Source: a virus (Duplodnaviria > Heunggongvirae > Uroviricota > Caudoviricetes). From it: a DNA stretch of 17,794 nucleotides. The stretch lies in the IMG/VR virus record IMGVR_UViG_2671180275_000001; one strand, given 5' to 3'. How positions within the stretch are numbered: position 1 is the stretch's first letter; every line of letters begins with the position of its first letter. A model generated the notes under the pieces. It did no database searches. It had not been told where the DNA came from and saw only the letters and a list, made by a program, of their open reading frames with translations. Shown here one piece after another: positions 12-17,794 of this stretch. A program made the translations under genes and the position numbers.

Positions 12-248
12 TTACTTGACCACTACAGTCCACTGAAATGCACGGACGCCACCGTGCCGTTCCAGAAAGGCTTTTAAAGATGGGTGTTCACATTTACGAA
101 CACGTATCGTCACGCTGTAAGTCGACAACTGGTTATTCAGTCCCGCCGCACGACGCTGTTCATAACCATCGCCCAGCTTCACTGTCACCACTTTCGGCTC
201 TGATACCACATTCATATCCGGGCGCACTTTCCAGTGAAACGTCTCCAT
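12..248 (-). CDS. M: minor tail protein, lambda gpM-like (78 aa; shorter than lambda M)
   Basis: Translation METFHWKVRPDMNVVSEPKVVTVKLGDGYEQRRAAGLNNQLSTYSVTIRVRK...FLERHGG is collinear with lambda M (MKTFRWKVKPGMDVASVP...GDGYSQRAPAGLNANLKTYSVTL...FLEEHGG). ATG at 248-246 overlaps the TAA stop of the upstream tape measure gene. Stop at 12-14. Confidence 0.8.
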   Translation of the reverse strand: METFHWKVRPDMNVVSEPKVVTVKLGDGYEQRRAAGLNNQLSTYSVTIRVRKCEHPSLKAFLERHGGVRAFQWTVVVK

Positions 249-3200
249 TACCGATATGCTCCACTTAACCGACCACCATCACGGGCCTGCTGTTGCATAA
301 AGTCCGCTGCCGCTTTTTTCCCGAGGTCATAAACCGCCTTCAGGGCAGCCGGACCTATCTGCCCGTTCGTGCCATCGTTATTGATCTCGATGTTGTACTG
401 CGGGGAAAACATCGCCATACCTGAACCCCCAATATCCGCCACAACCCCCAGCTTACCGTCAGCACCACGACGCAATGGCAGAATGGCTTCAGGTCCCGCT
501 TCCCCCATCACACCCGCGCCTTTTGCAAAAGCAAAAAACGTCGGACGGTTAACCACCGTGCCACTGTAACGACTCAAATCAGCAGACTGATAAATCCCCC
601 CATTGGCATTCAGGGAAAGGCTGCTGAGATCAAATCCCAGTACACTGCCAATCCCTTTTATCGATTTCATCATGGTTGCCTGCGCCAGGATTTTCGCCAT
701 ATCTGACAGCACAGAAGAGGTGAAGGATTTGAAATTGAGTTTGCCGGTAGTGACAAAAGTTGCCAGGCCATTTCCCATGTTGCTGAAGGCTGACGAGAAC
801 ACCTGTTCTGCTGTTTCTGCCGTATTATCTGCATCCACGGTAAAATCCTGAAATGCACGCAGGACTCCGTTTTTCCAGTTACCCTGCACAACTTCAAGCT
901 GTTGCCAGTAACGGCGATTCTCATTCAGTTGTCGGTTCAGGCTCTCCGTCAGCGCCTGCTCGGCCTTTCTGTAGTCATCCGTGTTATATGTCCCTTTCTG
1001 CTCACTATCCCGCCTCAACTGCTCCAGCTGTTGCTGGTATTTCTGGCGAAGACTCAGTTGTACCTGATATCGCTGTCGCTGCTGATCACCCATACCCACC
1101 GTGGCGATATCCAGGTCATGTTGCTGACGCTGAGCGCGCTCTTCTTCAGCCAGTTGACTGGTCAGCTGAATTGTTTTTTTCTTCAGCTCGTTGAGTGCCG
1201 TCTGTTTCTGAAGCTCCTGCTGTTTTACATCCAGCAGCGTCAGTGCCTGAATCAGTTCATCTTTACGGGCCAGCACACTCTTTTCATCTGCCGTAAGTTT
1301 TTTCCCGTCCAGGTCGCTGATGCGCTGCTGCAGAGCCAGAAGCTGTTTATGCGCTTCTGTCATCCTTTCCGTGGCAATGCCTGCTGACTGTCTGGCAGCA
1401 GCAATCTGTCCTTCCACCTGTGCCTGTTGCTGACTGTACTGCAGCAATAACCGGGTGGCCTCATCATTAAGGGTTTCGCGTGTTTTTTTCTTACCGGATG
1501 CCAGGGCTTTCTCGTAACGTTCATTTTCACGTTGTATCGCCGCATCCCTGACAGCCTGATCGGCGTACTGCATGGCATTAATACGCGCAATTTCACGCTG
1601 ATGTCGTGCTGCTTCCGTTTCATTCATCCGGTTCAGTGCAGCATTTTCAGCATTACGGCGTTTCTGTTGCTCCTGATAATTCCGCTCTGCCTGCTCTTTT
1701 GCATCCTGCAAATCCTTCTGGCGTTTTTTCTCCTGAAGATCGTTAAGACGCTGCTGATCGTATTCAACCTGAGAAGATGATGCCGTCCAGGGGAGTCTTT
1801 TCGCCCGCGACACTTTCTCCTGTAAAGCGGCAATCTGTTCATCCAGCGAGTCTTCACGACCAATATTCATGGCCGCATCCCAGAAACGACTCCACAAATC
1901 AGACAGATACTTCAGCGTACTGCCAAGCGCATTGAGGTTATTATCAATATCCGCAGTACGCCGACCGGTTTCCTCTGCCAGTGCAGACATGGCTATCCGT
2001 GCAGCATCACTGGACCGCCCCTGCTCCCCAAGGACGCGTATCTGCTCAAGCTGAGTGGCAGTAAGAAAATGCAGCTCATTGTCCAGAGCCTTCGCGGCAT
2101 TTACAGGATCATCCTTCAGCCGCTTAAACTGATTTATGGTATCGCTGACCGACTGGCCAACCGATCGCTCCATCTGTGCGGCAGCTCTCGCCACCATACC
2201 GATATCGTTTCCACGAAATGCACCACTCCCCACCACCTGAGCCAGCGCACCGGCTGCAGCATGTTGCGTGATACCATTCCCGGAAATAGCACGACTGAGC
2301 GTCCACAGCTGCCCGGCAGTGACTCCGGCATAATGCCCCGTCAGCGACAACTGGCGGTTAAATTCTTCCCCCTCCTTCTGACCGTCATACCAGGCTTTAC
2401 CCAGACCATAGACGGCCGCGGCAATACCGCCAATAACCCCGCCAAGCATCATGCCTTTCGGTGACATCAGTGTGTCTATCCATCCGGCACGGTTAGCCAG
2501 CGTTATCCCGGATCCCCTCAGCGCCCCTAAATTGCCGCGGGCCAGTTCACCTATCAGAACGCCTATCTCCTGGCGGGCTGATGCACTTTTCAGACCCAGC
2601 GAATGCGTGGCTTTTCCTGCCTGCTCCATTTTGCGGATATACACTTCTGCAGCACTGCTTACCCCCAGCTGGGCTGCCTTAGCACGAAGCAACTCAGAAG
2701 ATGAAAGATTCAGGCGGGTTGCCTGCTCTTTAAGCTGACGGATAAACGCCACTTTCTGTCGGGTAGCCTCTTCCTCAGCCTGTGTAAGAACACGGGTTTT
2801 CGCAGTAACCTCAGAAATCAGCGCCAGATAATCCTGCTGACCAATCCCGCCACTGTTTCTGGCCTGTCGGATCTGCTGCTGAATACGCTGTAATTCCTGC
2901 AGCCCCGCACTGGCCTGTTTCACACTGTCAATCTGACGATAAAACGCAGCAGCCGCTTTATCCTGAACCTCCGCCAGAGCCATGGCCTGCGCCTGTTCCT
3001 CGCGCATTTTCTGGCTCAGTGCCTCCATGCGCTGGCGGGTTTTCTCCACCTCGCGGGCCATGCGTTCATGAGCCTGTGCGTTCTTCTCCACCGTCTGCGC
3101 ATGGACGGATGCGGCTGTTGCAGCCGAAGAAGCTGCCTGCGTTGTCTGCCGGGCGGCCTGAGTCTGACGCTCCATAAAACGCTGCATACGGGCAGAAGAC

Positions 3201-3313
3201 CGTTCTGCATCGCTGGCTGCACCATTCAGAAGGTTTTTGATACGGGGAATTTCATTTTTAAACTCTGCCGCATCAATCCCCAAATCAATGACCAGGTTGG
3301 CTATCTGGTCCAT
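248..3313 (-). CDS. H: tail tape measure protein, lambda gpH-like (1021 aa from ATG at 3313)
   Basis: Long coiled-coil-rich ORF; C-terminus INNDGTNGQIGPAALKAVYDLGKK...DGGRLSGAYR matches the lambda H C-terminus. Start placed at internal ATG (MDQIANLVIDLG) preceded by GGAGGT about 7 nt upstream; the track ORF begins at an upstream TTG. Confidence 0.9.
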   Translation of the reverse strand: MDQIANLVIDLGIDAAEFKNEIPRIKNLLNGAASDAERSSARMQRFMERQTQAARQTTQAASSAATAASVHAQTVEKNAQAHERMAREVEKTRQRMEALSQKMREEQAQAMALAEVQDKAAAAFYRQIDSVKQASAGLQELQRIQQQIRQARNSGGIGQQDYLALISEVTAKTRVLTQAEEEATRQKVAFIRQLKEQATRLNLSSSELLRAKAAQLGVSSAAEVYIRKMEQAGKATHSLGLKSASARQEIGVLIGELARGNLGALRGSGITLANRAGWIDTLMSPKGMMLGGVIGGIAAAVYGLGKAWYDGQKEGEEFNRQLSLTGHYAGVTAGQLWTLSRAISGNGITQHAAAGALAQVVGSGAFRGNDIGMVARAAAQMERSVGQSVSDTINQFKRLKDDPVNAAKALDNELHFLTATQLEQIRVLGEQGRSSDAARIAMSALAEETGRRTADIDNNLNALGSTLKYLSDLWSRFWDAAMNIGREDSLDEQIAALQEKVSRAKRLPWTASSSQVEYDQQRLNDLQEKKRQKDLQDAKEQAERNYQEQQKRRNAENAALNRMNETEAARHQREIARINAMQYADQAVRDAAIQRENERYEKALASGKKKTRETLNDEATRLLLQYSQQQAQVEGQIAAARQSAGIATERMTEAHKQLLALQQRISDLDGKKLTADEKSVLARKDELIQALTLLDVKQQELQKQTALNELKKKTIQLTSQLAEEERAQRQQHDLDIATVGMGDQQRQRYQVQLSLRQKYQQQLEQLRRDSEQKGTYNTDDYRKAEQALTESLNRQLNENRRYWQQLEVVQGNWKNGVLRAFQDFTVDADNTAETAEQVFSSAFSNMGNGLATFVTTGKLNFKSFTSSVLSDMAKILAQATMMKSIKGIGSVLGFDLSSLSLNANGGIYQSADLSRYSGTVVNRPTFFAFAKGAGVMGEAGPEAILPLRRGADGKLGVVADIGGSGMAMFSPQYNIEINNDGTNGQIGPAALKAVYDLGKKAAADFMQQQARDGGRLSGAYR

Positions 3314-3635
3314 AACGCACACCTCCGGAAATACCTTCCCCAAGATGCATCAGTTCTTCGTCCGTTCGCTCCGGTATCCCGTTCTCTTCCGGTAAAAGGC
3401 TGAAATCAGCCACCGCAGCATCACTGCTGCCGGACACCATTCTCACGATCAATGCCTTCAGCGAGGCAAACTGCGCATCCATCCACACATCACTGAAGCT
3501 CTGCATCCGGAAATAATCGCCCCACTCACCAAGCTCAGTGGCCGACATTTCCGACAGCATCCGCCGCCAGTCTGCCCGCCGGAACTCCCGGGCAAGCCGC
3601 ATGACAAACTGCATTTCCCGCGTCAGGACTTTTCC
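3285..3635 (-). CDS. T: tail assembly chaperone, T-frame part of a G-T fusion made by programmed -1 frameshift (lambda gpT-like)
   Basis: ORF in the -1 frame relative to G, open upstream through the 3-prime end of G with no stop; position between G and H as in lambda. The standalone ATG at 3614 is probably not the functional start. Confidence 0.65.
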   Translation of the reverse strand, partial: GKVLTREMQFVMRLAREFRRADWRRMLSEMSATELGEWGDYFRMQSFSDVWMDAQFASLKALIVRMVSGSSDAAVADFSLLPEENGIPERTDEELMHLGEGISGGVRYGPDSQPGH

Positions 3636-6489: not shown

Positions 6490-8448
6490 TTACGCCGTAC
6501 ATTTCACCAGACCGCGGTGATCAACTGGCGCGACACCGGCGTCAATACGCACTTTCGTTGTCACGCCATCCACACTGAAGCCCTCCATCTGATCAATATA
6601 TGGCGTATCCACACCGTTGAGATAAGCCACTTCAATCGTATCGGAGCCTTTGGACGCAGCCAGGTAGAAGGTGGTCTGGCTGTTATCATCAAGACGAGGC
6701 TCTGCAATAACGGTCGCAAAATCTTTCACCGGGTTAATAATACCTGCGTTAATGTCAGCCCCCTTGACACTTGAGGAGCGAATGACCTGGTTAGCAACAG
6801 ACTCCATCGCCGTCGGTACCAGTACGAACGCAGGACGAATATTCAGATGACGCTCCCCCTCTTTCTGAACGCGCATCAACTGGCGGGCTTTATCCAGCGA
6901 TGCCACGTCCATTGCAGCGCTCTCCAGTACGTTTGCATGTTTCGCTTTATCGAACAGACTTACATTATCTGTGGAGATTTTCGGGTTAGACGTCAGAATG
7001 GCATAAACCAGATCGGCAATGGTGGATTTCGCCGCACGGCCCAGCTTCATCGGGACATCGGTCAGCATATTCAGATCATCATTGATAATGGCCTGACGGG
7101 TGATACTGAACAGCTCGCCATAGGTCGCCAGTGCAATAGTGGCCTGTTTATCTCCGGTGGTGACGTATTTATATTCCGCCCCTTCACGCACCTGACGCAG
7201 AGCACTGAAGCCCCCCATACCCACACGATGGGCAATTTTAAAATCAGACAACTGACCTTTCCGCGTCCACTGTTCATAGGTTTCAGGAGCATCTTCCCAG
7301 CCCTGCAGAATGGCTTTGTTCGCAACATCCAGCAGAATATTACCGAAGTCAGACGTACTGTGTGTGAACGCCGCACCGACCATCTGCATCGGGTTATAAC
7401 TGGAAACCCCAATACCCCGTTCAGTCAGTGACATACGGGCATATTCACGCAGGGTCATCCCGTTGTAGACATTATCACGTTCGGTTTTTTCAAATCCGGC
7501 ACGCGCCATCAGCGCCTGGCGGATCCCGTCCCCCACAAAATTACCGTTACCGGCATAAATATGAGCCGGGGTATTTTTATTGGATGGCGTGGACTCGCGC
7601 CCCATCTCGTTCAACAGCTTTTCGCGGGCCTGCTCCAGCGAACATTCAGGATCGGCAAGACACTGAGCCTGCAGAGTCTGATAACGCCCGCCAAACATGG
7701 CAAACAGATCATTAATACCGTTTACACGCGCTTTTTGCTCTGCCAGTACCTGCGCACGGATACTGTTTTCATCCACCACGGGTGCTGCTGCCTGCACTGG
7801 CGTCCGGGAGGCTGCAGGTTCATCATCCTGTACGCGTGGAGCACTGTTGCGTGGCGGAGTAATCATGTTTCGAATGGATTCCGGCATCTTTTTAAATTCC
7901 TCTGTACGTTTTGACTGAATACATGCCATTGCCTTAACGGCTGGCGTTACCTGATCAGCAAATCCATGTGCCAGACATTCGGCACCGGACATCCAGGTCT
8001 CATCCGCCAGCATGGCAGCAATTTCATCGGTGGTTTTCCCGGTTTTCTGTGCATAAGCGGGTAACAGAACCGCCTCAACTTTATCGAGCAGGTCGGCATA
8101 GGTGCGCATGTCCTCCGCATCACCGCCCGTAAAGCCAAATGGTTTATGAATCATCATGAAAGTGTTTTCCGGCATAATGACCGGGTTTCCCACCATCGCA
8201 ATGACCGACGCCATTGACGCCGCCACACCGTCGACATAAACGGTAATGGACGCACCATGTGTTTTCAGCGCATTAAAAATGGCGATGCCTTCAAAGACAT
8301 CGCCACCCGGTGAATTAATATGGAGATTAATGTGGGTGATATCGCCCAGTGCATTCAGATCACTGATAAACTGCTTCGCTGTAACACCCCAGAAACCAAT
8401 CTCGTCATAAATATAAATATCCGCGTCACTCTGGTGACCAGCCTGCAT
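6490..8448 (-). CDS. fused prohead protease (ClpP-like) / major capsid protein (HK97 fold), 652 aa
   Basis: N-terminus has ClpP-type motifs (IYDEIG, SPGGD, GVAASMAS, MMIHKPFG); C-terminal half has HK97-type capsid blocks (PEGAEYKY, FSITRQAIINDDL, TDTIEVAYLNG, KVRIDAGVA). Start set to the first ATG after the portal stop (MQAGHQSD...); the 739-aa track ORF would overlap the portal by about 250 nt. Confidence 0.9.
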   Translation of the reverse strand: MQAGHQSDADIYIYDEIGFWGVTAKQFISDLNALGDITHINLHINSPGGDVFEGIAIFNALKTHGASITVYVDGVAASMASVIAMVGNPVIMPENTFMMIHKPFGFTGGDAEDMRTYADLLDKVEAVLLPAYAQKTGKTTDEIAAMLADETWMSGAECLAHGFADQVTPAVKAMACIQSKRTEEFKKMPESIRNMITPPRNSAPRVQDDEPAASRTPVQAAAPVVDENSIRAQVLAEQKARVNGINDLFAMFGGRYQTLQAQCLADPECSLEQAREKLLNEMGRESTPSNKNTPAHIYAGNGNFVGDGIRQALMARAGFEKTERDNVYNGMTLREYARMSLTERGIGVSSYNPMQMVGAAFTHSTSDFGNILLDVANKAILQGWEDAPETYEQWTRKGQLSDFKIAHRVGMGGFSALRQVREGAEYKYVTTGDKQATIALATYGELFSITRQAIINDDLNMLTDVPMKLGRAAKSTIADLVYAILTSNPKISTDNVSLFDKAKHANVLESAAMDVASLDKARQLMRVQKEGERHLNIRPAFVLVPTAMESVANQVIRSSSVKGADINAGIINPVKDFATVIAEPRLDDNSQTTFYLAASKGSDTIEVAYLNGVDTPYIDQMEGFSVDGVTTKVRIDAGVAPVDHRGLVKCTA

Positions 8449-8461
8449 CCTGAACCAGGAA

Positions 8462-9970
8462 TTATTCTTCGGACTGGTCGTCGGTGTGCTGCGGCTCCTG
8501 TCGTTTCGTTGCGGCACTGCTGCCTCCTTTATCACTGGCCGGATCGGTATCAAATACCAGATCCAGCTTGCGGTTTTCATCAATTTCGGCCTTGCGCCGA
8601 CGTTTGACATCATCCGGATTACGACCACCAGCACGTACCCAGTCTGATTCTGTCGCCGCTCCACCACGAATCTGGATTTTCCAGGCCTCAGCCTCCTTAA
8701 CAGGGTCAATCCACGGCATCACTGGTCCGGAATACACCGCGGTATACAGTGAAGAACGGTCAAGATCGCGGGGTAGCCTGATAACACCGGATGCCACAGC
8801 CTGTTTCAGCCAGGCACGATACATCGGGCGGGTGACGGCACCAATAAACCAGTCCTGCAGGATCAGGTAGCCATCAGTAGACTCAACCAGTTCCTGACGC
8901 TGGGCGCTGTAAGTGCCGTTATAGTTGCGTGCCGTACTGGAAAAACTCAGACGACTGCCCGCCGCCACGGCACGCAACTGACCATTACGAAAAGTTTCAA
9001 GGTTAGGATTGGGACGATCCGACTTCACCATTCCGATTTCTTCGCCGGGTTTCAGATCGTCGTAAATAATGCCTGGCTGAATGGTAAGCTCGCGTTCATT
9101 CTCCTTGCTGTCATTACCATCCGTTTCATAGCTCTGTCCGTCGCCTTTCCGGATGTACATCCCCAGAGCAGCGGCGATCCTTGCTGCAGTCAGCTCAGAA
9201 TCTTCATACTCTTTCAGGGCGCTGAGGCGGATCAGCACACCGGACAATAAAGACGTCCCGCGCATCTGGTGCAGACGTCGAACAAATTTAAGATGCAGCA
9301 TTCGCTCTGCATCCACTTCTTTGGTTTCCATCTGCCGTCCGGATACAGGACGACTTTTATACACCAGATATTTTTCGGGACGCCCCCAGTCATCAACAAA
9401 CACGCCCTGATTCAGCCTGTTGCTCTCATCACTGGTCATGGGAATAAAGTCCGGCTCGAGCGCCTCCAGCCAGAAATGAACACCGGCAGAAGGCGTCAGG
9501 CTGTTTATGCGCCCGGAAACCATCTGGGCAAACACCTCACCATCGCGCAGCCAGGTACGCAGCATCAGACGTTCCAGCATCGGACGGGTAAACTGCCCGG
9601 TGACTTCCGGACTGACAGACCATTCACTCCATCGGGTACGTATCTCCGCTGCCAGGTCACGGGCAATGGCACCATTGCGTAATACCGGATGTGGCTCGAC
9701 AATAATCCCGTTTTTCCCCACCACCCGTTCTTCCAGCTTGTCAAATACACCAATGACCAGATCGTGGTTGTTATCAAGGTAACGGGCCTGCTCACGTAAC
9801 GACACGGCCCCGTACTGGCTTAACTGGTCGGCAGTTCGGTTCTCCCGTCGGGCTTTGTGTGTCCGCGTCGTTTTTACGGCCTCATAAGCTTGGATCACCG
9901 CTCGGGAACGCAGCCTTGCCGCTTTCCATCCTGGTGAAAAAACGCCAATCACATCATCAAGAATTGCCAT
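8462..9970 (-). CDS. B: portal protein, lambda gpB-like
   Basis: 502-aa ORF from MAILDDVIGVFSPGW with GAGG 5 nt upstream. Position between the W-like gene and the protease/capsid gene; length and overall composition resemble lambda B (533 aa). ATG overlaps the W-like stop (TGATG). Confidence 0.88.
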   Translation of the reverse strand: MAILDDVIGVFSPGWKAARLRSRAVIQAYEAVKTTRTHKARRENRTADQLSQYGAVSLREQARYLDNNHDLVIGVFDKLEERVVGKNGIIVEPHPVLRNGAIARDLAAEIRTRWSEWSVSPEVTGQFTRPMLERLMLRTWLRDGEVFAQMVSGRINSLTPSAGVHFWLEALEPDFIPMTSDESNRLNQGVFVDDWGRPEKYLVYKSRPVSGRQMETKEVDAERMLHLKFVRRLHQMRGTSLLSGVLIRLSALKEYEDSELTAARIAAALGMYIRKGDGQSYETDGNDSKENERELTIQPGIIYDDLKPGEEIGMVKSDRPNPNLETFRNGQLRAVAAGSRLSFSSTARNYNGTYSAQRQELVESTDGYLILQDWFIGAVTRPMYRAWLKQAVASGVIRLPRDLDRSSLYTAVYSGPVMPWIDPVKEAEAWKIQIRGGAATESDWVRAGGRNPDDVKRRRKAEIDENRKLDLVFDTDPASDKGGSSAATKRQEPQHTDDQSEE

Positions 9971-10182
9971 CAGAACCTCGCCAGCCGGTACCCGGGATGC
10001 CCCCGTCGTCGTGTAATCAGAGCCGCAAGGCGGCGCTCCCACTCCTGCCGCCCCTGCCGGATCTCAGATAAGTTTTCCATGGTCATCTGCTGACCATTAA
10101 AAGTGACGGATTTTCCGTCCAGCACTGCCATTTCAGCTTCCGTATAACGCTGAATCATGGCTTCAATATCATTCTGATTCAT
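9970..10182 (-). CDS. W: head-tail joining protein, lambda gpW-like
   Basis: 70-aa ORF (MNQNDIEAMIQRYTEAEMAVLDGKSVTF...RRRGHPGY). Lambda W is about 68 aa and ends ...QRRRGPAGFYV. ATGA overlap with the terminase stop, as for lambda A-W. GGAGG lies 6 nt upstream. Confidence 0.6.
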   Translation of the reverse strand: MNQNDIEAMIQRYTEAEMAVLDGKSVTFNGQQMTMENLSEIRQGRQEWERRLAALITRRRGHPGYRLARF

Positions 10183-11291
10183 AACCATCCTCCGGAAGTC
10201 AGCCAGGGGTTAACATCGTCAGTTACTGTTTTCTTCCGTTTTTGTTTTTTAACAGGCGTGGATACCGGTTCCGGTGTGGGTGACGGTTCGGTACTGTCCG
10301 GGACACACTCCAGCCAGGTTTCCCGGCTCGCCCACTCCGGTGCATCCGGCCAGCGGATCTTTTCGTATCCATGCAGAATGACCAGAGCCTCGGCATACAC
10401 CATCAGGTCAAAAGCTTCGTTGGCACCGCGACCCGGCTTACTCCATTTCCCGTCACTGCTCCGCTCTTCATACGTCAGTTCGTCGTAAAACCAGCTCCCC
10501 AGCCAGTCAGGGAAATGCACATAGCCGGGACCTGGCGAGTCACGCCATAACGCGTTATTCACCCTGTCTTTCAGGGCATCCGTCTGAAGAAGCCAGAGCG
10601 GTACATCACCTGCGGCCTGCGCCCGTCGGCCCGTTCGTCCGGTGTTATCAGGGAATGTACGGGTGATCAGTTTTGCGCGCCGGATGCTGTCGCCCTTAAA
10701 CAGGTAAATACGTTTACCAAGGCCATCACGACGGCAACGACGCCAGAATTTATAGGCATTATCAGTGACCCCGTCTTCACCGCCGGAGTCCACCGCCATT
10801 GCCATCAGTCGCATTTGTTGAGAAGGATCGGAGGCCAGCGGCCAGCTTTTATGAAAAACATCCGTCAGCAGGACATCCCAGTCTTCCGGATAGCTGGCCG
10901 GATCAATTCGCTGGCTCTCCCCGTCGCTGTCACCGCGCAATGACTGCGTGATGTTGTAACGATCAATAATCCAGCGTTCGCCACGGCTGCCATAGCCCGT
11001 TACCTGAACCACAAAACGGCGATGACGTCCCGCCTGCACATCCACTGTCGCCACAAGGAAATTAACGCCATCCGGCACACTGCGGGAAGGAACTGGCTCT
11101 GCCCGCTGCTCAAGCAATTCACTTTTTCGTTGCTCCATGCTGGCGCGGGGAAGATAAGGTAATCCCCAGTCGGTATTGATAACCGTCTTGAGTGTCTCTT
11201 CACTTCCGGTTGTCTCGTATTCCTGTTCTGCAGTAAGCAGTTTGTAAACGAGTTGCGAGAGTGTCTGATAAGCAGCTGCCGGCCCCTCCAT
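10179..11291 (-). CDS. A: terminase large subunit, gpA family, C-terminal portion only (5-prime truncated; probable pseudogene)
   Basis: 370-aa ORF matching the C-terminal part of lambda gpA (LVATVDVQ vs LTAGIDSQ; AVDSGG vs WDTGG; NEAFDLMVYAEAL vs NEALDCFVYALAA). Frame is closed by a stop 11 codons upstream of the ATG; no SD; upstream DNA is AT-rich and non-coding. No Walker-A N-terminal domain. Confidence 0.8.
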   Translation of the reverse strand: MEGPAAAYQTLSQLVYKLLTAEQEYETTGSEETLKTVINTDWGLPYLPRASMEQRKSELLEQRAEPVPSRSVPDGVNFLVATVDVQAGRHRRFVVQVTGYGSRGERWIIDRYNITQSLRGDSDGESQRIDPASYPEDWDVLLTDVFHKSWPLASDPSQQMRLMAMAVDSGGEDGVTDNAYKFWRRCRRDGLGKRIYLFKGDSIRRAKLITRTFPDNTGRTGRRAQAAGDVPLWLLQTDALKDRVNNALWRDSPGPGYVHFPDWLGSWFYDELTYEERSSDGKWSKPGRGANEAFDLMVYAEALVILHGYEKIRWPDAPEWASRETWLECVPDSTEPSPTPEPVSTPVKKQKRKKTVTDDVNPWLTSGGWL

Positions 11292-11313
11292 CCAGGAAGA
11301 AGTAAATAAAAGG

Positions 11314-11345
11314 TAACTAAATGATTATAAATAGTTATTTAGTTA
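11314..11345. repeat. AT-rich inverted repeat TAACTAAAT-N14-ATTTAGTTA next to the terminase truncation point
   Basis: Perfect 9-bp arms at about 11314-11322 and 11337-11345, within 25 bp of the ATG at 11291. Confidence 0.4.
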
Positions 11346-11659
11346 TACTACCTCCTACATAGTCCAAGATTTAGTACCTGCTTAAACGATAAAAAAAGAA
11401 ACAAAAGCAGCAATATTAATTAAAAGCTGAATGATGATGGGGGTACGCTTGTGTCTGATTCCGGTAACGCGGTGGATTAATCCCAGTATTTCGGCTTCTG
11501 TCATTGTGCCCCCATCGCGCTGGTGAAGAAAACAAGCTCAGATTTTTTGTAAAGAATCTGTCACGCTAAAAGATGTCGAACAAAAAATAACCTTCTTCAT
11601 CATCTTTTTCACATCAAAATAATTAAAAACAATCACTTACGCACATGATGATGATGACG

Positions 11660-11760
11660 ATAAAATCAAAAAAATGCGCTTTTTTCCGCGCCGCCCGCCC
11701 CGTGTTCAGGCCCACCCCACCAGGAGGACCCGCAAAAAAGGCGGCTGGTGCCGCCTTGTT
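11660..11760 (-). repeat. conserved ~100-bp element, copy A (terminator plus conserved distal block)
   Basis: Aligns at roughly 85% identity with 14198-14299 (ATAAAATCAAAAAATGCGC...TTTTTCCGCGCC...CCGCCCCGTG...CAGGCC...ACCCCACCAGGAG...AAAAAAG + hairpin). Identity is by eye. Confidence 0.6.
11733..11756 (-). terminator. intrinsic terminator after the second protease/capsid gene
   Basis: Minus strand GGCGG-CACCAG-CCGCC followed by TTTTTT, starting 6 nt after the stop at 11762. Confidence 0.6.
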
Positions 11761-11761
11761 G

Positions 11762-13651
11762 TCATAGTGAATCTGTCCCGCCTGATTTGACCATACCGCG
11801 ATAATCCAGAGCTGCCACACCTGCATCAATACGGACTTTCCAGGCCACGCCGTCAACGATAAAACCTTCCTGCTGTTCAAGGTAAGGCTCGTCATTGCCA
11901 TCAAGATAAGCCACCTCGATTGTGTCAGTTCCCTGTGCGGAAAGCATGTACCATTGTTTTTCGCTGATATCATCAAGGCGGGGATCGACGATGATATCAA
12001 GTAGCTTGTGGTACGGGTTAAAGATCCCGCTGTTTTTATCAGCCCCGAAAGGTGCGGTTGAGTTAATCATCTGCAACGCGCGATCTTCCAGTGCTGCCGG
12101 AACTAAAAGGAATTTAGGCGCAATATTCAGCACTTCGCCATTTTTGTCCTTCTGTGTGCGCATCAGGTGACGTGCTGCACTAAGTCCCGATGTTGTCAGT
12201 CCTGCTTCAATCAGGTTGCTGTGTTTTTTGTCAAACAGCGTTATTCCGTCAGAAAGTTTTACGTTGCCTGTAAGCACCAGATTAACCAGATTTCCCACCG
12301 TTCTTGATGCTGCACGGCCCATAGCCATTGGCACCGTTGATAACTGATCAAGGTCATCATTGATTATCGCCTGGCGGGTAATGCTGAAAATATTCCCGTA
12401 AGTAGCCAGCGCGATGGGTTCACCGCGATCGCTGGTGGTGATGTATTTATATTCTGCCCCTTCCGGCACTTTGCTTAACGTAGAGAAACCATTCAGGCCA
12501 ACGCGGCGGGCTTCACGAAAGTTTGAAAGGGAACCTTTTTTCGTCCACTGGCGGAATGTTTCGCCGCTGTGCTCCCAGCCTGCAAGCACTGATTTTTCAG
12601 CGCCACCAGCAAGGATATCGGTAAAATCGCTGCTGCTGTGGTTGAATGCCGCGTTTACTATCTGCGAGCGTGTGCCGTAGCTGCCCGTGCTTATACCACG
12701 ATGGGTTAATGATGCCTGTGCCATATCGAAAAGACTCATCATGGCGTAAGGATTACCGCGTTCGGCCCGTTCGTGACCAAGACGCGCATTAAGCCCCTGA
12801 CGCATGGCATCGCCAGTTATATTGCCGTTATCCGTGTACGCGTAGTAAAGATTTGCGGGGGTGGTTTTGTTTGTTGGCGTTGATTCTTTACCCATAGCGA
12901 GTAAAAGGCGTTCGCGTGCATTCTCAACGCTACATTCTGAATCCGCAAGACAACTTATAGCCAGGTCGTTATATCTTCCGTTGAAGGTGCCAAACAATTC
13001 ACGGATTCCGTTAAGTCGTTCCTGTTCGCCACTGCCAGTTTTCTGGCTGATCATGCTTTTAATTTTTTCCGGCATATTTGAAAAATCTCCGATTCGTTTT
13101 GATTCAATTCGGGCCATTGCTGTAATCGCGGGTATAACCTCATCTGCGAAGCCGTTAGCCTTACACTCATTGCCATCCATCCAGGTTTCCGCCTCCATCA
13201 TGGCGGTGATTTCCTGTTTGCTCCTGCCCGTTCTTCCGGCGTAGGTTTCTGCCATCGTGTCGCCCAGCTTGTCCATCAGGTCAGCAAAGCGGCGAACGTC
13301 GCCCGACACTCCGGCAGTAACACCACGGGGGGTATGTATCATCATCATCGCGTTTTCAGGCATAACGATGTGATCGCCACACATGGCAATAAACGAGGCC
13401 ATAGAAGCCGCCATGCCCTCAATGTGTACAATTTTCTTTGCCGGATGATTTTTCAGGGCGTTATAGATAGCCAGCCCTTCAAAGATGTCGCCACCAGGTG
13501 AATGGATGCGAAGATGGATTTCAGACGCATTACCACACGCGTTGATCTCGTCAGTAAGTGCCGATGCTTTTACACCGTACCCGCCGATCTCGTCATAAAT
13601 GCGCACATAGACAACATCTGCCATAGCCTTAATGGAAAACCATGTTTTCAT
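11762..13651 (-). CDS. second fused ClpP-like protease / HK97-fold major capsid protein (629 aa), divergent paralogue of 6490..8448
   Basis: Same domain order and motifs (RIYDEIG, HSPGGD, GMAASMAS, MMMIHTPRG, PEGAEYKY, FSITRQAIINDDL, TDTIEVAYLDG, KVRIDAGVA). AGGAGA lies 6 nt upstream of the ATG at 13651, which overlaps the stop of the upstream small ORF (ATGA). Confidence 0.85.
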   Translation of the reverse strand: MKTWFSIKAMADVVYVRIYDEIGGYGVKASALTDEINACGNASEIHLRIHSPGGDIFEGLAIYNALKNHPAKKIVHIEGMAASMASFIAMCGDHIVMPENAMMMIHTPRGVTAGVSGDVRRFADLMDKLGDTMAETYAGRTGRSKQEITAMMEAETWMDGNECKANGFADEVIPAITAMARIESKRIGDFSNMPEKIKSMISQKTGSGEQERLNGIRELFGTFNGRYNDLAISCLADSECSVENARERLLLAMGKESTPTNKTTPANLYYAYTDNGNITGDAMRQGLNARLGHERAERGNPYAMMSLFDMAQASLTHRGISTGSYGTRSQIVNAAFNHSSSDFTDILAGGAEKSVLAGWEHSGETFRQWTKKGSLSNFREARRVGLNGFSTLSKVPEGAEYKYITTSDRGEPIALATYGNIFSITRQAIINDDLDQLSTVPMAMGRAASRTVGNLVNLVLTGNVKLSDGITLFDKKHSNLIEAGLTTSGLSAARHLMRTQKDKNGEVLNIAPKFLLVPAALEDRALQMINSTAPFGADKNSGIFNPYHKLLDIIVDPRLDDISEKQWYMLSAQGTDTIEVAYLDGNDEPYLEQQEGFIVDGVAWKVRIDAGVAALDYRGMVKSGGTDSL

Positions 13652-13842
13652 AGCCAGTCTCCTAACGTTGCCCTGTACCAGTATTCAACCGCGCTTCTCG
13701 CAATCTGCCCTTTCGTGGGTACTGGCATTCCAGGGTGATTACTTTTAATGAACTGCTGATAGCGTTCTATCTTTTCCATAGTTCCGGCGTCTATGTGTAC
13801 CGTGGCACTTTTATCCGGCTTTCTGGTGTTGTTCTCTGGCAT
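13648..13842 (-). CDS. small protein (64 aa) translationally coupled to the second capsid gene; possible ribbon-helix-helix fold
   Basis: Start at internal ATG (MPENNTRKPDKSATVHIDAGTMEKIERYQQFIK...GQIARSAVEYWYRATLGDWL) with GGAGG 7 nt upstream. Strand-helix-turn-helix pattern is a guess from residue periodicity. Confidence 0.45.
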   Translation of the reverse strand: MPENNTRKPDKSATVHIDAGTMEKIERYQQFIKSNHPGMPVPTKGQIARSAVEYWYRATLGDWL

Positions 13843-14033
13843 AAATCCGCCTCCGTTTTGATTAACGGGCATCATTATTGATCGACAAAAGTAATAGATA
13901 AATCATTTTCTACCTGAAAATCAGATTATGTTTTTTCTGATTATTCTCAGAGAGGCAAAGCCATTGACGCATTTTTGCTATTGAAGCAATATTAAGACTC
14001 GTCATCATGGCGATAAAAACTCCTTTGTCGTGT

Positions 14034-14074
14034 AAAAGCGCCTCCGGTAACAGCAATCGGGGGCGCTTTTTTTT
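14034..14074 (+). terminator. plus-strand intrinsic terminator-like hairpin in an intergenic region
   Basis: Plus strand GCGCCTCCG-GTAACAGCAAT-CGGGGGCGC (9-bp stem including one G-U pair) followed by T8. In the minus orientation only TTTT follows. Confidence 0.5.
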
Positions 14075-14197
14075 GCGCCTGTTTTTTTGTAAATGTTTTC
14101 GGGAACGTTCCAGTGATGAACAAAAAACAACCTGATTCGACACTAAAAATTTTTATTCCTCAATATATCAATAGCTTATAGTGGTGGTGATGGTGCC

Positions 14198-14299
14198 ATA
14201 AAAATCAAAAAATGCGCCTTTTTCCGCGCCCCTCCGCCCCGTGGACAGGCCACCCCCACCAGGAGTACCTACAAAAAAGCCGGATTTCTCCGGCTGTTG
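14198..14299 (-). repeat. conserved ~100-bp element, copy B (terminator plus conserved distal block)
   Basis: Second copy of the element at 11660-11760; directly 3-prime of the PerC-like gene. Confidence 0.6.
14272..14296 (-). terminator. intrinsic terminator after the PerC-like gene
   Basis: Minus strand AGCCGGA-GAAA-TCCGGCT followed by TTTTTT, starting 5 nt after the stop at 14301. Confidence 0.6.
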
Positions 14300-14300
14300 A

Positions 14301-14573
14301 TTAGCTGTCTGGGTAATTACGCCATATTTCATCGCTTACACCATCTATACCCATTTCAGCATAAGTGCGATCGACTACCTTTCTCAGGTCTCCGAAGTTA
14401 TCCGGCGGCTCCGGTGGCCTCTGTGCCTTCCTGGAACATTCCAGCCGTCGCATCGTAACCTGATGCCGTTCCTTGTCTGTCTCCACCAGCTGCATGACTT
14501 CACCCCATCGCGCCGCCGCCCTCCGGTAAAATCCTTTCGCCTCGAGTTCCTCCGCTATGCGGTCATGTATCAT
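14301..14573 (-). CDS. PerC-family-like small transcriptional regulator (90 aa)
   Basis: N-terminal IAEELEAKGFYRRAAARWGEVM matches the AExLExKG-(F/W)-RRAAxRW signature I associate with PerC/Pch proteins. ATG at 14573 with GGAGAG upstream. Confidence 0.5.
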   Translation of the reverse strand: MIHDRIAEELEAKGFYRRAAARWGEVMQLVETDKERHQVTMRRLECSRKAQRPPEPPDNFGDLRKVVDRTYAEMGIDGVSDEIWRNYPDS

Positions 14574-14748
14574 CGCCTGACTCTCCGGTTTTTACGTTGA
14601 TGGTTGTTACCTGTTCCGCTTCGGCAATCTCCCGTTCTGTCAACGTGGCAAAGTTTGCCGCCGCTGTGGTCATGAATGCGCTTATCAGTTCGGGATGCTC
14701 CTTCGCGTATCCTTCCCCAGCGTGGCGGTCTATTACCCTGATTGCCAC
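14563..14748 (-). CDS. small acidic hypothetical protein (61 aa); frame and start uncertain
   Basis: Protein-like composition (MAIRVIDRHAGEGYAKEHPELISAF...); GTG start without a clear SD. An overlapping 77-aa Arg-rich frame (14570..14803) ends in an ATGA overlap with the PerC-like start and could be the real gene instead. Confidence 0.3.
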   Translation of the reverse strand: MAIRVIDRHAGEGYAKEHPELISAFMTTAAANFATLTEREIAEAEQVTTINVKTGESGDDT

Positions 14749-14785
14749 CTTTAAGGCGTGCTCTGTCTCTGCGCATTTTGGTTAT

Positions 14786-14990
14786 CTCCTCACTCATGCT
14801 CACTTTTACACCTCACTTTTTAAAGCGTCTCGCTTCGTCTCACTTGATATTTTTTGATGCTTTATGTGTGTGTTTCATAAGGATTTTTTTACTCCTCACT
14901 TTTGAGCATGTATACAGGTGAGAAAGTGAGTAATCGTGTTAATATTTTGTAAAAACCTCACCATTACTCACTTTTGCTACTCACTTTTTA
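14786..14990. repeat. iteron-like direct repeats (CTCACTTTT) flanking an AT-rich spacer; candidate replication origin
   Basis: At least six direct copies of (C)TCACTTTT plus one inverted copy (GTGAGAAAGTGAG) around an AT-rich stretch at about 14846-14892, immediately 3-prime of the helicase-like gene. Confidence 0.5.
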
Positions 14991-16388
14991 CAGTGGTCCT
15001 ACATCATCACCATCAATGTAAATCACGGCGTCTTTTTCCAGTTTGGCTAACCATCGCCGCATATTTTTCACGTCATACCCAAGCCGTTTCATGTCATCAC
15101 GTAACAGCGGGATCGTGCACTTGTCGCCGTTCTGTGTGCGTGAACGGATGCACCCCCATAGTGCGGTATGGTTTTCCGTCTTGTTGCCTGCCTCCTCGAT
15201 GCGTTCCAGTTCAACGGGAGGGCGCGGCTTATCCACCACCACCAGCGACGTGATTAACTCCCCGTCAGCGTCGGTAAACAGCTCCACCACGCGTAAGTCA
15301 TATGCGGCTTCTTTGAGTTCCTCCGCGTCCTTCATTTTGGTGCATGAGATAACCAGCGCTTCGCTTCCTGCGTCCTCCCTGCGTATCCGGTATTCAGCAT
15401 CCAGCGAAGCACGAAATGCACTGGAACCGCGCGCGCCTTTCGTCTCATCCTTGCCGGAATGGTGAACCACCAGCACCGTGGCCCCTGTGCGTCGTTTCAG
15501 TTCGTCACAACCACGGATAAACGCCCCCATATCACGGGAATCATTTTCATCATTCCCACCAAAGCAACGCGCCAGCGTATCCAGAATAATCATGCGTACA
15601 GGTTTACCCGTTTCCCGCTCCACCTGACGGGCAGCGATAACCATTTCATCAACATCAAGCGGGGCAGCCGGAAAGATGGGGCGGTTTACCAGATACAGAT
15701 TTTTCACCTGCTCATCGTGCACAACCTCCCAGGCTTTTACACGACGCGGAACACCTATACCGCCTTCACCAACCACATAGAGAACCGCACCATGTGCAAC
15801 CCTGCGGCCTCCCCACTGGCGACCAGTGGCAACATGGCACGCCCACGATCCGGCAAGGAATGATTTATAGGACCCGCTAGCCCCGTATATGCTGCACAGC
15901 GATACCGCCGGAATAATCCCCTTAACCACGTAATCAAGTTGTGTGTCGTATCCGGCAGATCCCACGCTCATTGGTAGCGTGGTTTTTCGCTGGTGGTGTT
16001 TTTCTTCCCCTGGCTTTTTCCCCCGCTCCCGTTCCAGATATTCGCGCCAGTTCTCCCGCTTCTGGCTGTGCATCCCTTCGGGGTAATAATTCGCATCAGT
16101 TACACCCGCCGCCGCCAGCTTGTGCGCAATGGCATTAATATTTGATGGCCTGATGTGGCCTGCCTTGTACAGCCGGACACAATAGCGCCCCTCGTCGATG
16201 ATTCTCAGGTCTGCCAGTTCATCCAGTTGATCATCAGCCAGCACAACGGGAGGCACATTATCGCCAGCCAGTCGCCCGTCCTGTTCCTGCCACTGTTTCG
16301 CATGTGCCCAGGCATCACTACCCGCAAAAATAATGACTTCGGTCATCTTGTCGTAAGGCTGTTTTTTTAAGTTCGGTGCGCTTTTCAT
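14988..16388 (-). CDS. replication protein: RepA/DnaB-like RecA-fold P-loop helicase (AAA_25-like) with an N-terminal domain of unclear type
   Basis: Walker A YGASGSYKSF and Walker B MIILDTLARCFGGNDEND, with LVVHHSGKDETKGARGSSAF downstream, as in RepA-type hexameric helicases. ATGA overlap with the upstream 99-aa ORF. Confidence 0.75.
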   Translation of the reverse strand: MKSAPNLKKQPYDKMTEVIIFAGSDAWAHAKQWQEQDGRLAGDNVPPVVLADDQLDELADLRIIDEGRYCVRLYKAGHIRPSNINAIAHKLAAAGVTDANYYPEGMHSQKRENWREYLERERGKKPGEEKHHQRKTTLPMSVGSAGYDTQLDYVVKGIIPAVSLCSIYGASGSYKSFLAGSWACHVATGRQWGGRRVAHGAVLYVVGEGGIGVPRRVKAWEVVHDEQVKNLYLVNRPIFPAAPLDVDEMVIAARQVERETGKPVRMIILDTLARCFGGNDENDSRDMGAFIRGCDELKRRTGATVLVVHHSGKDETKGARGSSAFRASLDAEYRIRREDAGSEALVISCTKMKDAEELKEAAYDLRVVELFTDADGELITSLVVVDKPRPPVELERIEEAGNKTENHTALWGCIRSRTQNGDKCTIPLLRDDMKRLGYDVKNMRRWLAKLEKDAVIYIDGDDVGPL

Positions 16389-16684
16389 TTCTTGCCCCTG
16401 AATCCGTTAATCATGGTTTTCAGCTTCTGGATGTTTGCCCGTGCCCTGGCGTTGCTGGTGGGCACGTTATGCGGCGCGGTCTGTACCAGAGAAAAATCAC
16501 GCCGGAACTGATAAACAGGCATCACGCAATCATATTCGTAACCTTCACGGCGGTAAGTTACGCACCGTCCCGCCACGCCCTTAATCATTACCGTACCGCC
16601 GTACTGGTCGCGGTAAATATCACCGCGCGTAAATTTAGGGTGAGTGTTGCCACTGGCAGTTAAGCCAGAATATTTAAGTTTCAT
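16385..16684 (-). CDS. hypothetical protein (99 aa)
   Basis: ATG start; stop overlaps the helicase start (ATGA). No recognised motif. Confidence 0.5.
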   Translation of the reverse strand: MKLKYSGLTASGNTHPKFTRGDIYRDQYGGTVMIKGVAGRCVTYRREGYEYDCVMPVYQFRRDFSLVQTAPHNVPTSNARARANIQKLKTMINGFRGKK

Positions 16685-16689
16685 TATTT

Positions 16690-16923
16690 TTATTCTCCGG
16701 TGTGCTGTTCTTTATATCTGTCGTGCAATAGATCTATTTCTTGCAGTTCCATTATTACATGCTCAAGAATCGTTATTAATGCCGTGGCAATTCTTGATTT
16801 TTGTTTGTCGCGTTCATTGTCGCCAAGTGTTTCAAGCCATATGCGCAATATTTCCATCATGCTTTCACTGTGAGAAAGTGCAAGAAATGCGCGGTCTATT
16901 GTTTCAAGATAAATATCACGCAT
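16690..16923 (-). CDS. hypothetical helical protein (77 aa)
   Basis: ATG one nt after the stop of the upstream ORF (TAAtATG); GGGGA upstream. No recognised motif. Confidence 0.45.
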   Translation of the reverse strand: MRDIYLETIDRAFLALSHSESMMEILRIWLETLGDNERDKQKSRIATALITILEHVIMELQEIDLLHDRYKEQHTGE

Positions 16924-16924
16924 A

Positions 16925-17359
16925 TTAATCCCCGTCCGTTGTTTTTCTTAAAACAGCTTCTGTCACGAAATCGGCATAGTTAGCGGCAATATCAAGAATA
17001 TTTAGCCCTGTATCTCTGTGCTCATCAGTGCAAAGAAAGAAAAAAGCCACCCGCATAATTTCAGATATTAACGAAAGCGCATCAACCGCATCATCAGGAA
17101 CGCCGGAAAATTCTTGTTTCAGGGAATTAAAACGATCATCACGCATAACCCCCCCATTTTCACAATCAGCAACAAGAATATTTTTAGCGTCATTCAGTGA
17201 CCGCGTTGCGGTGTATCGGATACATTCCAGGGCGAATAGTGTGTATTCTTCCCGTCCTTCCTTTTGTGCAAGCTCTGCTGTGCATTCAATATCAATAAGC
17301 GCGTGCATCAGCGTAGTGAGCGCGGCGGCTGCTGCGTCCGGTGTGGTTTTATTGCACAT
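16925..17359 (-). CDS. hypothetical protein (144 aa)
   Basis: Start at internal ATG (MCNKTTPDAAAAALTTLMH...) with GGAGGT 6 nt upstream. No recognised motif. Confidence 0.5.
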   Translation of the reverse strand: MCNKTTPDAAAAALTTLMHALIDIECTAELAQKEGREEYTLFALECIRYTATRSLNDAKNILVADCENGGVMRDDRFNSLKQEFSGVPDDAVDALSLISEIMRVAFFFLCTDEHRDTGLNILDIAANYADFVTEAVLRKTTDGD

Positions 17360-17540
17360 GGCACACCTCCTGACGAATACGGGCGGCGAATACAGCAACA
17401 CAACCGGACGGGCAACGGCTACGCGCTTCGCGTTCCGTCCAGGCGGTTACGTGGATGATTTGAGATTCTGACGCGCCAAAGATGATAAAGCGCCAGATAA
17501 ATGCGGTTTGAGAATGTACAAGGGTAGGGATAGTAGCCAT
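17349..17540 (-). CDS. hypothetical small protein (63 aa) with a Cys-x3-Cys ... Cys-His pattern
   Basis: Internal ATG (MATIPTLVHSQTAFIWRF...RCPSGCVAVFAARIRQEVCHVQ) with GGAGG 7 nt upstream; first gene after the terminator-like hairpin at about 17702-17725. Confidence 0.4.
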   Translation of the reverse strand: MATIPTLVHSQTAFIWRFIIFGASESQIIHVTAWTEREARSRCPSGCVAVFAARIRQEVCHVQ

Positions 17541-17701
17541 GTTGGCAGCCTCCTCAGTGTGGTTAAGATAACCGCCACGCAAAAGGCTAATTTCGCTGGT
17601 GGCGGACTGTACAGGGTTAGCCTTACCGGACACTGAAGAAACCGGCGCGGATTGCTCCGCCCCCGTACAGCCCACCATTGATAAGGTGTGACTATGCGGC
17701 A

Positions 17702-17725
17702 CAAAAAAACACGCGGGGCGCGTGC
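17702..17725 (-). terminator. intrinsic terminator-like hairpin closing a transcription unit that lies beyond the window end
   Basis: Minus strand CACGCG-CCC-CGCGTG followed by T7. Confidence 0.4.
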
Positions 17726-17794
17726 TGTGCGCTTCAGTTGTTTTCAGGAGGCTAATCCCGACACCCGTTTTATGAGGTGCGCGGGAATCATAGC

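What the first reader, a model, noticed from the sequence alone, without database searches (positions are those of the whole stretch)
14301..14803. PerC-family-like regulator inside the module, preceded by an ambiguous overlapping small ORF
The 90-aa protein carries the N-terminal signature I associate with PerC/Pch activators, which in EPEC/EHEC are carried on plasmid or prophage-like elements and activate host virulence regulators. Here it is the last gene of a short operon and is followed by the conserved terminator element. Two overlapping upstream frames (61-aa acidic; 77-aa Arg-rich) both end at the PerC-like start, one with an ATGA overlap, so the true partner gene is unresolved.
Basis: partly seen in the sequence, partly recalled or inferred. 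Interest (0 to 1): 0.45.

Follow-up and report, generated by a model that had tools for sequence, protein, structure and literature searches.

The report
PchE-type PerC regulator in a phage satellite
The 90-residue gene is a real PerC-family regulator, 96% identical to the already studied PchE of E. coli O157:H7, carried as cargo by a phage satellite; the two puzzling upstream frames are one small gene broken by a 35-base deletion.

Summary

**The PerC gene.** The ORF at 14301..14573 (-) matches Pfam PerC over its full length (E 3.9e-44, 149 bits against a cut-off of 22.6). It is 86/90 identical to PchE (ECs_1588) of O157:H7 Sakai element Sp7, which from Sp7/OI-51's published 15.4 kb size and gene content I take to be the cf-PICI EcCIEDL933. 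It is 42% identical to EPEC PerC.

**Setting.** Gene order matches Sp7: replication gene, iteron origin, small gene, (SSB), perC, a conserved terminator, then capsid genes. The host element is a Gram-negative PICI embedded in the terminase gpA gene of a lambdoid prophage.

**The upstream puzzle.** Relatives carry one 82-94 aa gene (phrog_1231, the ECs1586 family) in the acidic frame. The window has a 35-bp deletion between GACAGA repeats. This joins the gene's true start to an out-of-frame Arg-rich reading.
- None of the 15 listed matches, of 42 complete E. coli genomes matching the junction, shows the deletion.
- The openness of the Arg-rich frame is not unusual (shuffle p 0.09-0.39).

**Status.** PerC genes in PICIs are already described, and perC is absent from some close relatives, so it is accessory cargo. 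Published work on PchE reports no LEE1 activation, repression of curli and adhesion, and increased flagella. This is known biology and of low interest.

The parts
14301..14573 (-). perC/pchE-type gene, 90 aa
   Evidence: Pfam PF06069 E 3.9e-44, profile positions 1-89 of 90. phrog_994 E 1.5e-45. 86/90 identical to Sakai PchE ECs_1588. This exact protein is listed in 161 blocks of public assemblies. AF2 model is all-helical with pLDDT 84.6.
14581..14586 (-). Shine-Dalgarno GGAGAG, 7 nt before the perC ATG
   Evidence: Read directly from the sequence. It lies inside the 3' end of the upstream gene.
14563..14803 (-). One small gene (phrog_1231 / ECs1586 family) broken by a frameshift. Native start region is 14776 (ATG) to 14803 (GTG). 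The conserved C-terminal 61 codons are 14563..14748.
   Evidence: phrog_1231 E 2.9e-37 at profile 26-81 of 83. 93% identical to ECs1586. Intact 85-94 aa genes are present in relatives.
14762..14767 (-). Junction of the 35-bp deletion, inside a GACAGA microhomology
   Evidence: Alignment A1 and direct comparison. All 15 listed matches in complete E. coli genomes span 121 bp against the 86-bp query, in two pieces.
14273..14295 (-). Intrinsic terminator ending the replication-zone transcript
   Evidence: Conserved after perC, or after SSB where perC is absent.
14170..14272 (-). G-rich conserved tail that follows the terminator, with a second weak hairpin and T-run
   Evidence: 81% identical to the stretch after the satellite capsid gene, 11650..11755. 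Its fold is not clearly better than shuffles (z -1.8).
14800..14990 (-). AAGTGAG iteron cluster (PICI-type origin) between repA and the small gene
   Evidence: Repeat families D1, D2, I4, I5, I9 and I18. GC 0.35. An origin downstream of the replication gene is the published PICI layout (PMC10111431, PMC6092414).
14988..16388 (-). RepA-type helicase (AAA_25), the satellite replication gene
   Evidence: Pfam E 9.2e-44. phrog_2850 E 1.6e-260.

Best explanation
The gene is an allele of pchE, the group 3 PerC homologue of EHEC. It is carried as accessory cargo at the junction between the replication zone and the late zone of a Gram-negative phage-inducible chromosomal island (PICI). Here that island sits inside the terminase gene of a lambdoid prophage.

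Shown:
- Family membership, near-identity to PchE and conserved synteny.
- The gene has its own Shine-Dalgarno site.
- Its start overlaps the end of the upstream small gene.
- A conserved intrinsic terminator follows it.
- The upstream gene is inactivated in this window by a 35-bp deletion. The shifted frame stays open up to the ATGA at the perC start, so ribosomes would still arrive there.

Inferred from published work on the family:
- The product is a small all-helical regulator without a classical DNA-binding domain.
- It probably acts by remodelling nucleoid-protein (H-NS/Hha-type) silencing complexes, or by binding other regulators, as shown for PchA-C at LEE1.
- For the PchE type, the reported output is repression of csgD/curli and adhesion and increased flagella. 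LEE activation is not reported for it.

Transcription probably comes from the long unidirectional satellite transcript or from a weak promoter in the origin region. This is not shown.
For: Family: Pfam PerC 149 bits, full length; EPEC PerC 41.6% identity over 99% of the query; motif alignment.

Identity and synteny: 86/90 identical to ECs_1588 PchE, with the order primase - ECs1586 - SSB - pchE - ECs1589 - capsid in Sakai Sp7.

Distribution: 654 complete E. coli genomes hold at least 80% of the 530-bp region. The exact protein is listed in 161 assembly blocks, and the 8 contexts shown all have the layout DUF4222 - primase - small gene - PerC - ClpP/capsid fusion.

Satellite setting: truncated terminase gpA next to the satellite capsid gene. 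Relative 15A shows terminase N-terminal part / int / HTH / Bro / RepA / ... / capsid / terminase C-terminal part. This matches the published helper-embedded PICIs (PMC10111431).

Fold: five helices, pLDDT 84.6. No DNA-binding fold was found in the PDB. There is a sub-threshold ANR-like N-terminus.

Literature: PICIs encode PerC variants (PMC6092414, PMC11773190); Pch displaces H-NS at LEE1 (PMC4764244); PchE phenotypes (PMC6265319, PMC7369912).
Against: No experiment concerns this allele, which differs from Sakai PchE at 4 residues. The mechanism was shown for PchA-C, not for PchE. The PchE phenotypes come from plasmid over-expression; deletion had little effect (PMC6265319). dN/dS between close alleles is poorly determined (0.17-0.83, from 4-16 differences). 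No promoter was identified. The upstream gene is broken, so the local operon is not in its native state.
Confidence: 0.8

Rival explanations
1. The PerC-type protein serves the satellite itself. For example, it could relieve silencing of the AT-rich origin or late region, switch on the downstream capsid genes, or tune the helper prophage. Its effects on host genes would then be side effects.
For: It holds a fixed position between the origin and the late zone in several PICI types. It is flanked by AT-rich stretches with GC 0.35-0.37. The family's only known mechanism is anti-silencing (PMC4764244).
Against: perC is absent from close relatives that keep the same capsid module and terminator (strain 15A). 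The presence of PerC among EcCIMP1-like elements is described as variable (PMC11773190). No paper read here links PerC to satellite induction or transfer.
Confidence: 0.15
2. It activates the LEE (ler) promoter, as EPEC PerC and EHEC PchA-C do.
For: Same Pfam family and the same N-terminal motif.
Against: It is 96% identical to PchE. PchE is reported not to be needed for, or to affect, ler/LEE1 expression (PMC6265319; PMC11773190 citing Porter 2005). Identity to EPEC PerC is only 42%. Another PICI PerC-like protein represses LEE1 (PMC11773190).
Confidence: 0.05
3. The 77-aa Arg-rich frame is a real gene: an overlapping gene or a frameshift product that partners PerC.
For: It is open for 77 codons and ends in an ATGA overlap with perC. 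The same frame is open in relatives. An independent +1 G frameshift in L010 also runs into it.
Against: It has no family hit in Pfam or PHROGs. Its first 13 codons are simply the native N-terminus of the acidic-frame gene, joined by a deletion seen in none of the listed matches among 42 complete genomes. Codon shuffles leave this frame open as often as observed (p 0.09-0.39).
Confidence: 0.03
4. The 35-bp gap is an assembly or sequencing error, and the upstream gene is intact in the real genome.
For: It was not seen in any listed match from the complete genomes that match the junction.
Against: The gap is flanked by a 6-bp direct repeat, as expected of a slippage deletion. Thirty-five bases is unusual for a read-level error. 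An independent disruption of the same gene exists in another assembly (L010).
Confidence: 0.15

Closest known systems
PchE (ECs_1588 / OI-51, Sakai Sp7, which I equate with cf-PICI EcCIEDL933)
   Same: 86/90 residues are identical and the length is the same. The neighbours match (ECs1586-family gene upstream, conserved terminator downstream) and both sit in a PICI replication/late junction.
   Different: Four substitutions (V2I, L28Q, K52R, A66V). There is no SSB gene between the small gene and perC. The replication gene is a RepA-type helicase instead of a P4-alpha-like primase. The late zone is a single ClpP/capsid fusion gene instead of a full capsid and packaging set. The island is embedded in a prophage terminase gene instead of a chromosomal site.
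PerC of EPEC (pMAR2 / EAF plasmid perABC operon)
   Same: Same Pfam family, the same size of about 90 aa, and the shared motif LExKGFYRRAAxRW plus a C-terminal (W/F)RNY.
   Different: 42% identity. It is plasmid-borne, last in perA-perB-perC, and activates LEE1. The PchE type is reported not to do so.
EcCIMP1_025, the PerC-like gene of PICI EcCIMP1
   Same: A PerC-family accessory gene of an E. coli PICI (PMC11773190).
   Different: About 40% identical to the PerC-like proteins of EcCIEDL933 and EcCICFT073, according to that paper. It represses LEE1-lux in Citrobacter rodentium. It was not compared directly here.
Helper-embedded PICIs (PMC10111431)
   Same: The satellite is co-oriented with the late genes and interrupts a lambda-like late gene (terminase A). 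It has Bro/immunity-RNA, replication and late zones and carries its own capsid gene.
   Different: Only one junction lies in the window. The int/alpA side was seen only in relative 15A.

Membership tests
PerC family (Pfam PF06069) | Full-length match to the family profile above the gathering score | tested here: met
   149.3 bits against a cut-off of 22.6, residues 1-89 on profile positions 1-89 of 90.
PerC family (Pfam PF06069) | Homology to the prototype EPEC PerC, including the N-terminal motif | tested here: met
   tblastn to pMAR2 perC: 41.6% identity, 99% coverage, E 4e-13. KGFYRRAA.RW is shared and invariant in 18 homologues.
PerC family (Pfam PF06069) | Transcriptional effect on LEE1/ler or other targets | not testable with these tools
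   Literature only. PchE type: no LEE1 effect, csgD repression, flagella increased (PMC6265319, PMC7369912, PMC11773190).
PchE (group 3 Pch) | Near-identity to ECs_1588 and the same genomic neighbourhood | tested here: met
   96% identity. Synteny with Sp7. Shared terminator.
Gram-negative PICI / helper-embedded PICI | Replication gene followed by an iteron origin, with unidirectional genes | tested here: met
   RepA helicase at 14988..16388, AAGTGAG iterons at 14800..14990, and all genes on the minus strand.
Gram-negative PICI / helper-embedded PICI | Integrase plus AlpA at the 5' end | tested here: inconclusive
   This part lies outside the window. It is present (integrase plus HTH regulator) in the 97%-identical relative 15A.
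Gram-negative PICI / helper-embedded PICI | Insertion inside a helper prophage late gene | tested here: met
   Only the gpA nuclease domain (370 aa) follows the satellite capsid gene in the window. In relative 15A the two terminase halves flank the island.
ANR (AraC negative regulator) family, NF033650 | Match above the curated cut-off | tested here: not met
   18.2 bits against a cut-off of 32, E 0.0016, residues 7-52. This is a resemblance only.

The most novel reading that the evidence does not exclude
PchE-type PerC proteins may be kept by satellites for their own benefit, for example as anti-silencers of the AT-rich origin or late region, or of helper genes. On this reading, selection acts on perC expression rather than on the upstream gene. 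That gene is broken independently in two lineages, and each time the shifted frame still delivers ribosomes to the ATGA at the perC start.
Probability: 0.12. Interest if true: 0.5.

Novelty: already known. Interest (0 to 1): 0.15.

Why it matters
The result has limited reach. It ties a named EHEC regulator (PchE) to its carrier, a phage satellite, in this case one embedded in its likely helper prophage. It also shows that perC is swappable cargo at one hotspot, which appears as small gene with or without SSB and with or without perC. Finally, it corrects a gene-calling ambiguity that automated annotation would turn into two spurious small ORFs.

Tried and rejected
- **RNA families.** Rfam on the whole window and, at permissive E-values, on 13600..15100 gave no credible RNA near perC. 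Only C4 and isrK were found, far upstream.
- **Promoter.** The scan found no minus-strand promoter upstream of the small gene.
- **Solved structures.** The PDB sequence search and a Foldseek search with the AF2 model gave nothing below E = 1, only weak TPR/MIT-like helical hits.
- **NCBIfam.** It gave no PerC-model hit, only a sub-threshold ANR match.
- **Phage records.** tblastn found just 5 weak PerC hits, so the family is rare in sequenced phage genomes.
- **Selection.** dN/dS on four close alleles was too noisy to be useful.
- **Overlapping-gene idea.** For the Arg-rich frame, it was rejected by codon shuffling.
- **Missing paper.** Porter et al. 2005 (PMC543544) is not held. Its results are cited only through later papers.

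Full report
**Observation.** On the minus strand the window holds three ORFs at the stated coordinates. A 90-aa ORF lies at 14301..14573. A 61-aa acidic ORF at 14563..14748 overlaps its start by 11 nt. A 77-aa Arg-rich ORF at 14570..14803 has its TGA overlapping the ATG (ATGA). A GGAGAG Shine-Dalgarno site lies 7 nt before the ATG. The hairpin AGCCGGAGAAATCCGGC followed by T6 sits at 14273..14295, a few bases (5) past the stop codon (-12.6 kcal/mol, z -2.9).

**Identity of the 90-aa protein.**
- It matches Pfam PerC (PF06069) end to end: E 3.9e-44, 149.3 bits against a gathering score of 22.6. It also matches phrog_994.
- The prototype PerC of EPEC plasmid pMAR2 aligns over 99% of it at 41.6% identity. 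The two share LExKGFYRRAAxRW and a C-terminal (W/F)RNY.
- One database homologue was named PchE, so I fetched the Sakai chromosome. ECs_1588, annotated 'transcriptional regulator PchE', is 86/90 identical.
- The exact window protein is listed in 161 blocks of public assemblies. A total of 654 complete E. coli genomes hold at least 80% of the 530-bp region.
- An AlphaFold model built from 18 homologues is all-helical: five helices, pLDDT 84.6, with a less confident Pro-rich linker at residues 51-59.
- Neither PDB sequences nor a Foldseek search gave any significant relative. The only other family signal is a sub-threshold ANR-like N-terminus.

**The upstream frames.**
- The acidic frame hits phrog_1231 (E 2.9e-37), but only from profile position 26. 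It is 93% identical to residues 25-80 of Sakai ECs1586. The Arg-rich frame hits nothing.
- Aligned with two relatives, the window lacks 35 bp that they have. The gap lies between two GACAGA repeats, and the junction is at 14762..14767.
- The two frames are therefore the halves of one 82-94 aa gene. Its true start region (ATG 14776, GTG 14803) now reads out of frame into the Arg-rich sequence.
- Forty-two complete E. coli genomes match the junction. All 15 listed matches are in two pieces spanning 121 bp rather than 86, which is the undeleted form.
- Assemblies with the identical PerC have an intact 87-94 aa gene, apart from L010. L010 carries an independent +1 G frameshift in a G-run of the same gene.
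- Codon shuffles show that the alternative frame is open no more than expected (p 0.09-0.39). There is no case for an overlapping gene.

**Setting.** Reading the minus strand, the window contains:
- isrK and C4-type immunity RNAs, followed by an Ash-family gene and small genes.
- A DUF4222 gene that is 78% identical to RgdR/ECs1581 and keeps the RGD motif (PMC3378721).
- A RepA-type helicase.
- An AT-rich cluster of AAGTGAG iterons.
- The broken small gene, perC and the terminator.
- A roughly 400-bp conserved spacer, a 75-aa gene and a ClpP/capsid fusion gene.
- Then only the C-terminal nuclease domain of a lambda-type terminase gpA, followed by a complete lambdoid head and tail gene set with its own ClpP/capsid fusion.

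In the 97%-identical relative 15A, the N-terminal terminase fragment, an integrase and an HTH regulator lie on the far side of the island. This is the 'helper-embedded PICI' arrangement already described (PMC10111431).

Sakai Sp7 has the order primase - ECs1586 - SSB - pchE - ECs1589 - capsid genes. From the published descriptions of Sp7/OI-51 and of EcCIEDL933, a 15.4 kb element of strain EDL933 with int, alpA, rep and a full capsid and packaging set, I take them to be the same cf-PICI (PMC3378721; bioRxiv 10.1101/2022.09.08.507074). No source I read states this identity outright.

**perC is cargo.** Three layouts occur at this spot:
- small gene - perC (the window and 88-3493);
- small gene - SSB - perC (Sakai, KY177 and the other listed relatives that retain perC);
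- small gene - SSB with no perC (15A).

The same terminator hairpin closes all three.

**How it probably works.** No step of the mechanism is shown here. Published work gives the following:
- PchA-C activate LEE1 by displacing H-NS from a silencing complex (PMC4764244).
- pchE, the group 3 gene, is reported as not needed for ler expression (PMC6265319).
- When over-expressed, pchE represses csgD, curli and HEp-2 adhesion and raises flagellar expression (PMC6265319, PMC7369912).
- The PerC-like genes of EcCIEDL933 and EcCICFT073 had no effect on LEE1 fusions, and that of EcCIMP1 represses LEE1 (PMC11773190).
- PerC variants are already listed as PICI genes (PMC6092414, PMC13612085).

The helical model, with no recognisable DNA-binding fold, fits action through protein partners or nucleoid complexes.

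For expression, the separate Shine-Dalgarno site and the overlap with the upstream reading frame suggest translational coupling. In this window the shifted frame still ends on the perC ATG, so the deletion need not be polar. The promoter is unknown.

**Verdict.** The ambiguity is resolved as a frameshifted single gene. The feature is already known biology (PchE in a PICI) and deserves a low score.

Noticed in passing
window 10179..11291 and 11292..17794: The satellite is embedded in the terminase gpA gene of a lambdoid prophage. Only the gpA nuclease domain follows the satellite capsid gene. In relative L005 the N-terminal terminase part lies beyond the integrase. This is a helper-embedded PICI as in PMC10111431.
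   Followed up: partly
window 14170..14295 and 11650..11755 (minus strand): A roughly 110-nt element occurs twice: after perC and after the satellite capsid gene. It consists of a terminator hairpin plus a G-rich tail (CCTGGTGGGG..GGCCTG..CACGGGGCGG..GCGCGGAAAAA.GCGCATTTTTTGATTTT). The tails are nearly identical. The hairpin stems differ by compensating changes (AGCCGG/CCGGCT against AGGCGG/CCGCCT). Its function is unknown, and the fold is not clearly better than shuffles.
   Followed up: partly
window 16385..16684 (-): The DUF4222 gene just upstream of repA is 78% identical to RgdR (ECs1581), a published regulator of type III secretion and motility from OI-51. The RGD motif is kept.
   Followed up: yes
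window 17595..17682 and 17704..17780 (-): C4 antisense RNA (75 bits) and isrK (62 bits) matches. These are the P4 CI/seqA-like immunity RNA pair described for PICI Bro zones.
   Followed up: no
window 11381..11503 (-): A small ORF, MTEAEILGLIHRVTGIRHKRTPIIIQLLINIAAFVSFFIV (40 aa, hydrophobic tail), lies in the AT-rich stretch between the satellite capsid gene and the terminase remnant. Relatives carry a 93-aa hypothetical gene there instead.
   Followed up: no
window 13964..14080 (+): A promoter-like site (TTGACG-18-AATATT) is followed about 70 nt later by a plus-strand terminator-like hairpin (GGGCGC T8 GCGCC). It lies in the conserved spacer below perC and is antisense to the satellite genes. 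It could be a small antisense transcript. There was no Rfam match above threshold.
   Followed up: partly
window 6490..8709 and 11762..13651 (-): Two ClpP/major-capsid fusion genes lie in one window: the prophage's (739 aa) and the satellite's (629 aa). Both match the same Pfam families.
   Followed up: no
L010 2700..3011: An independent +1 G frameshift in a G-run of the same small upstream gene, in an assembly whose PerC is identical to the window's.
   Followed up: partly
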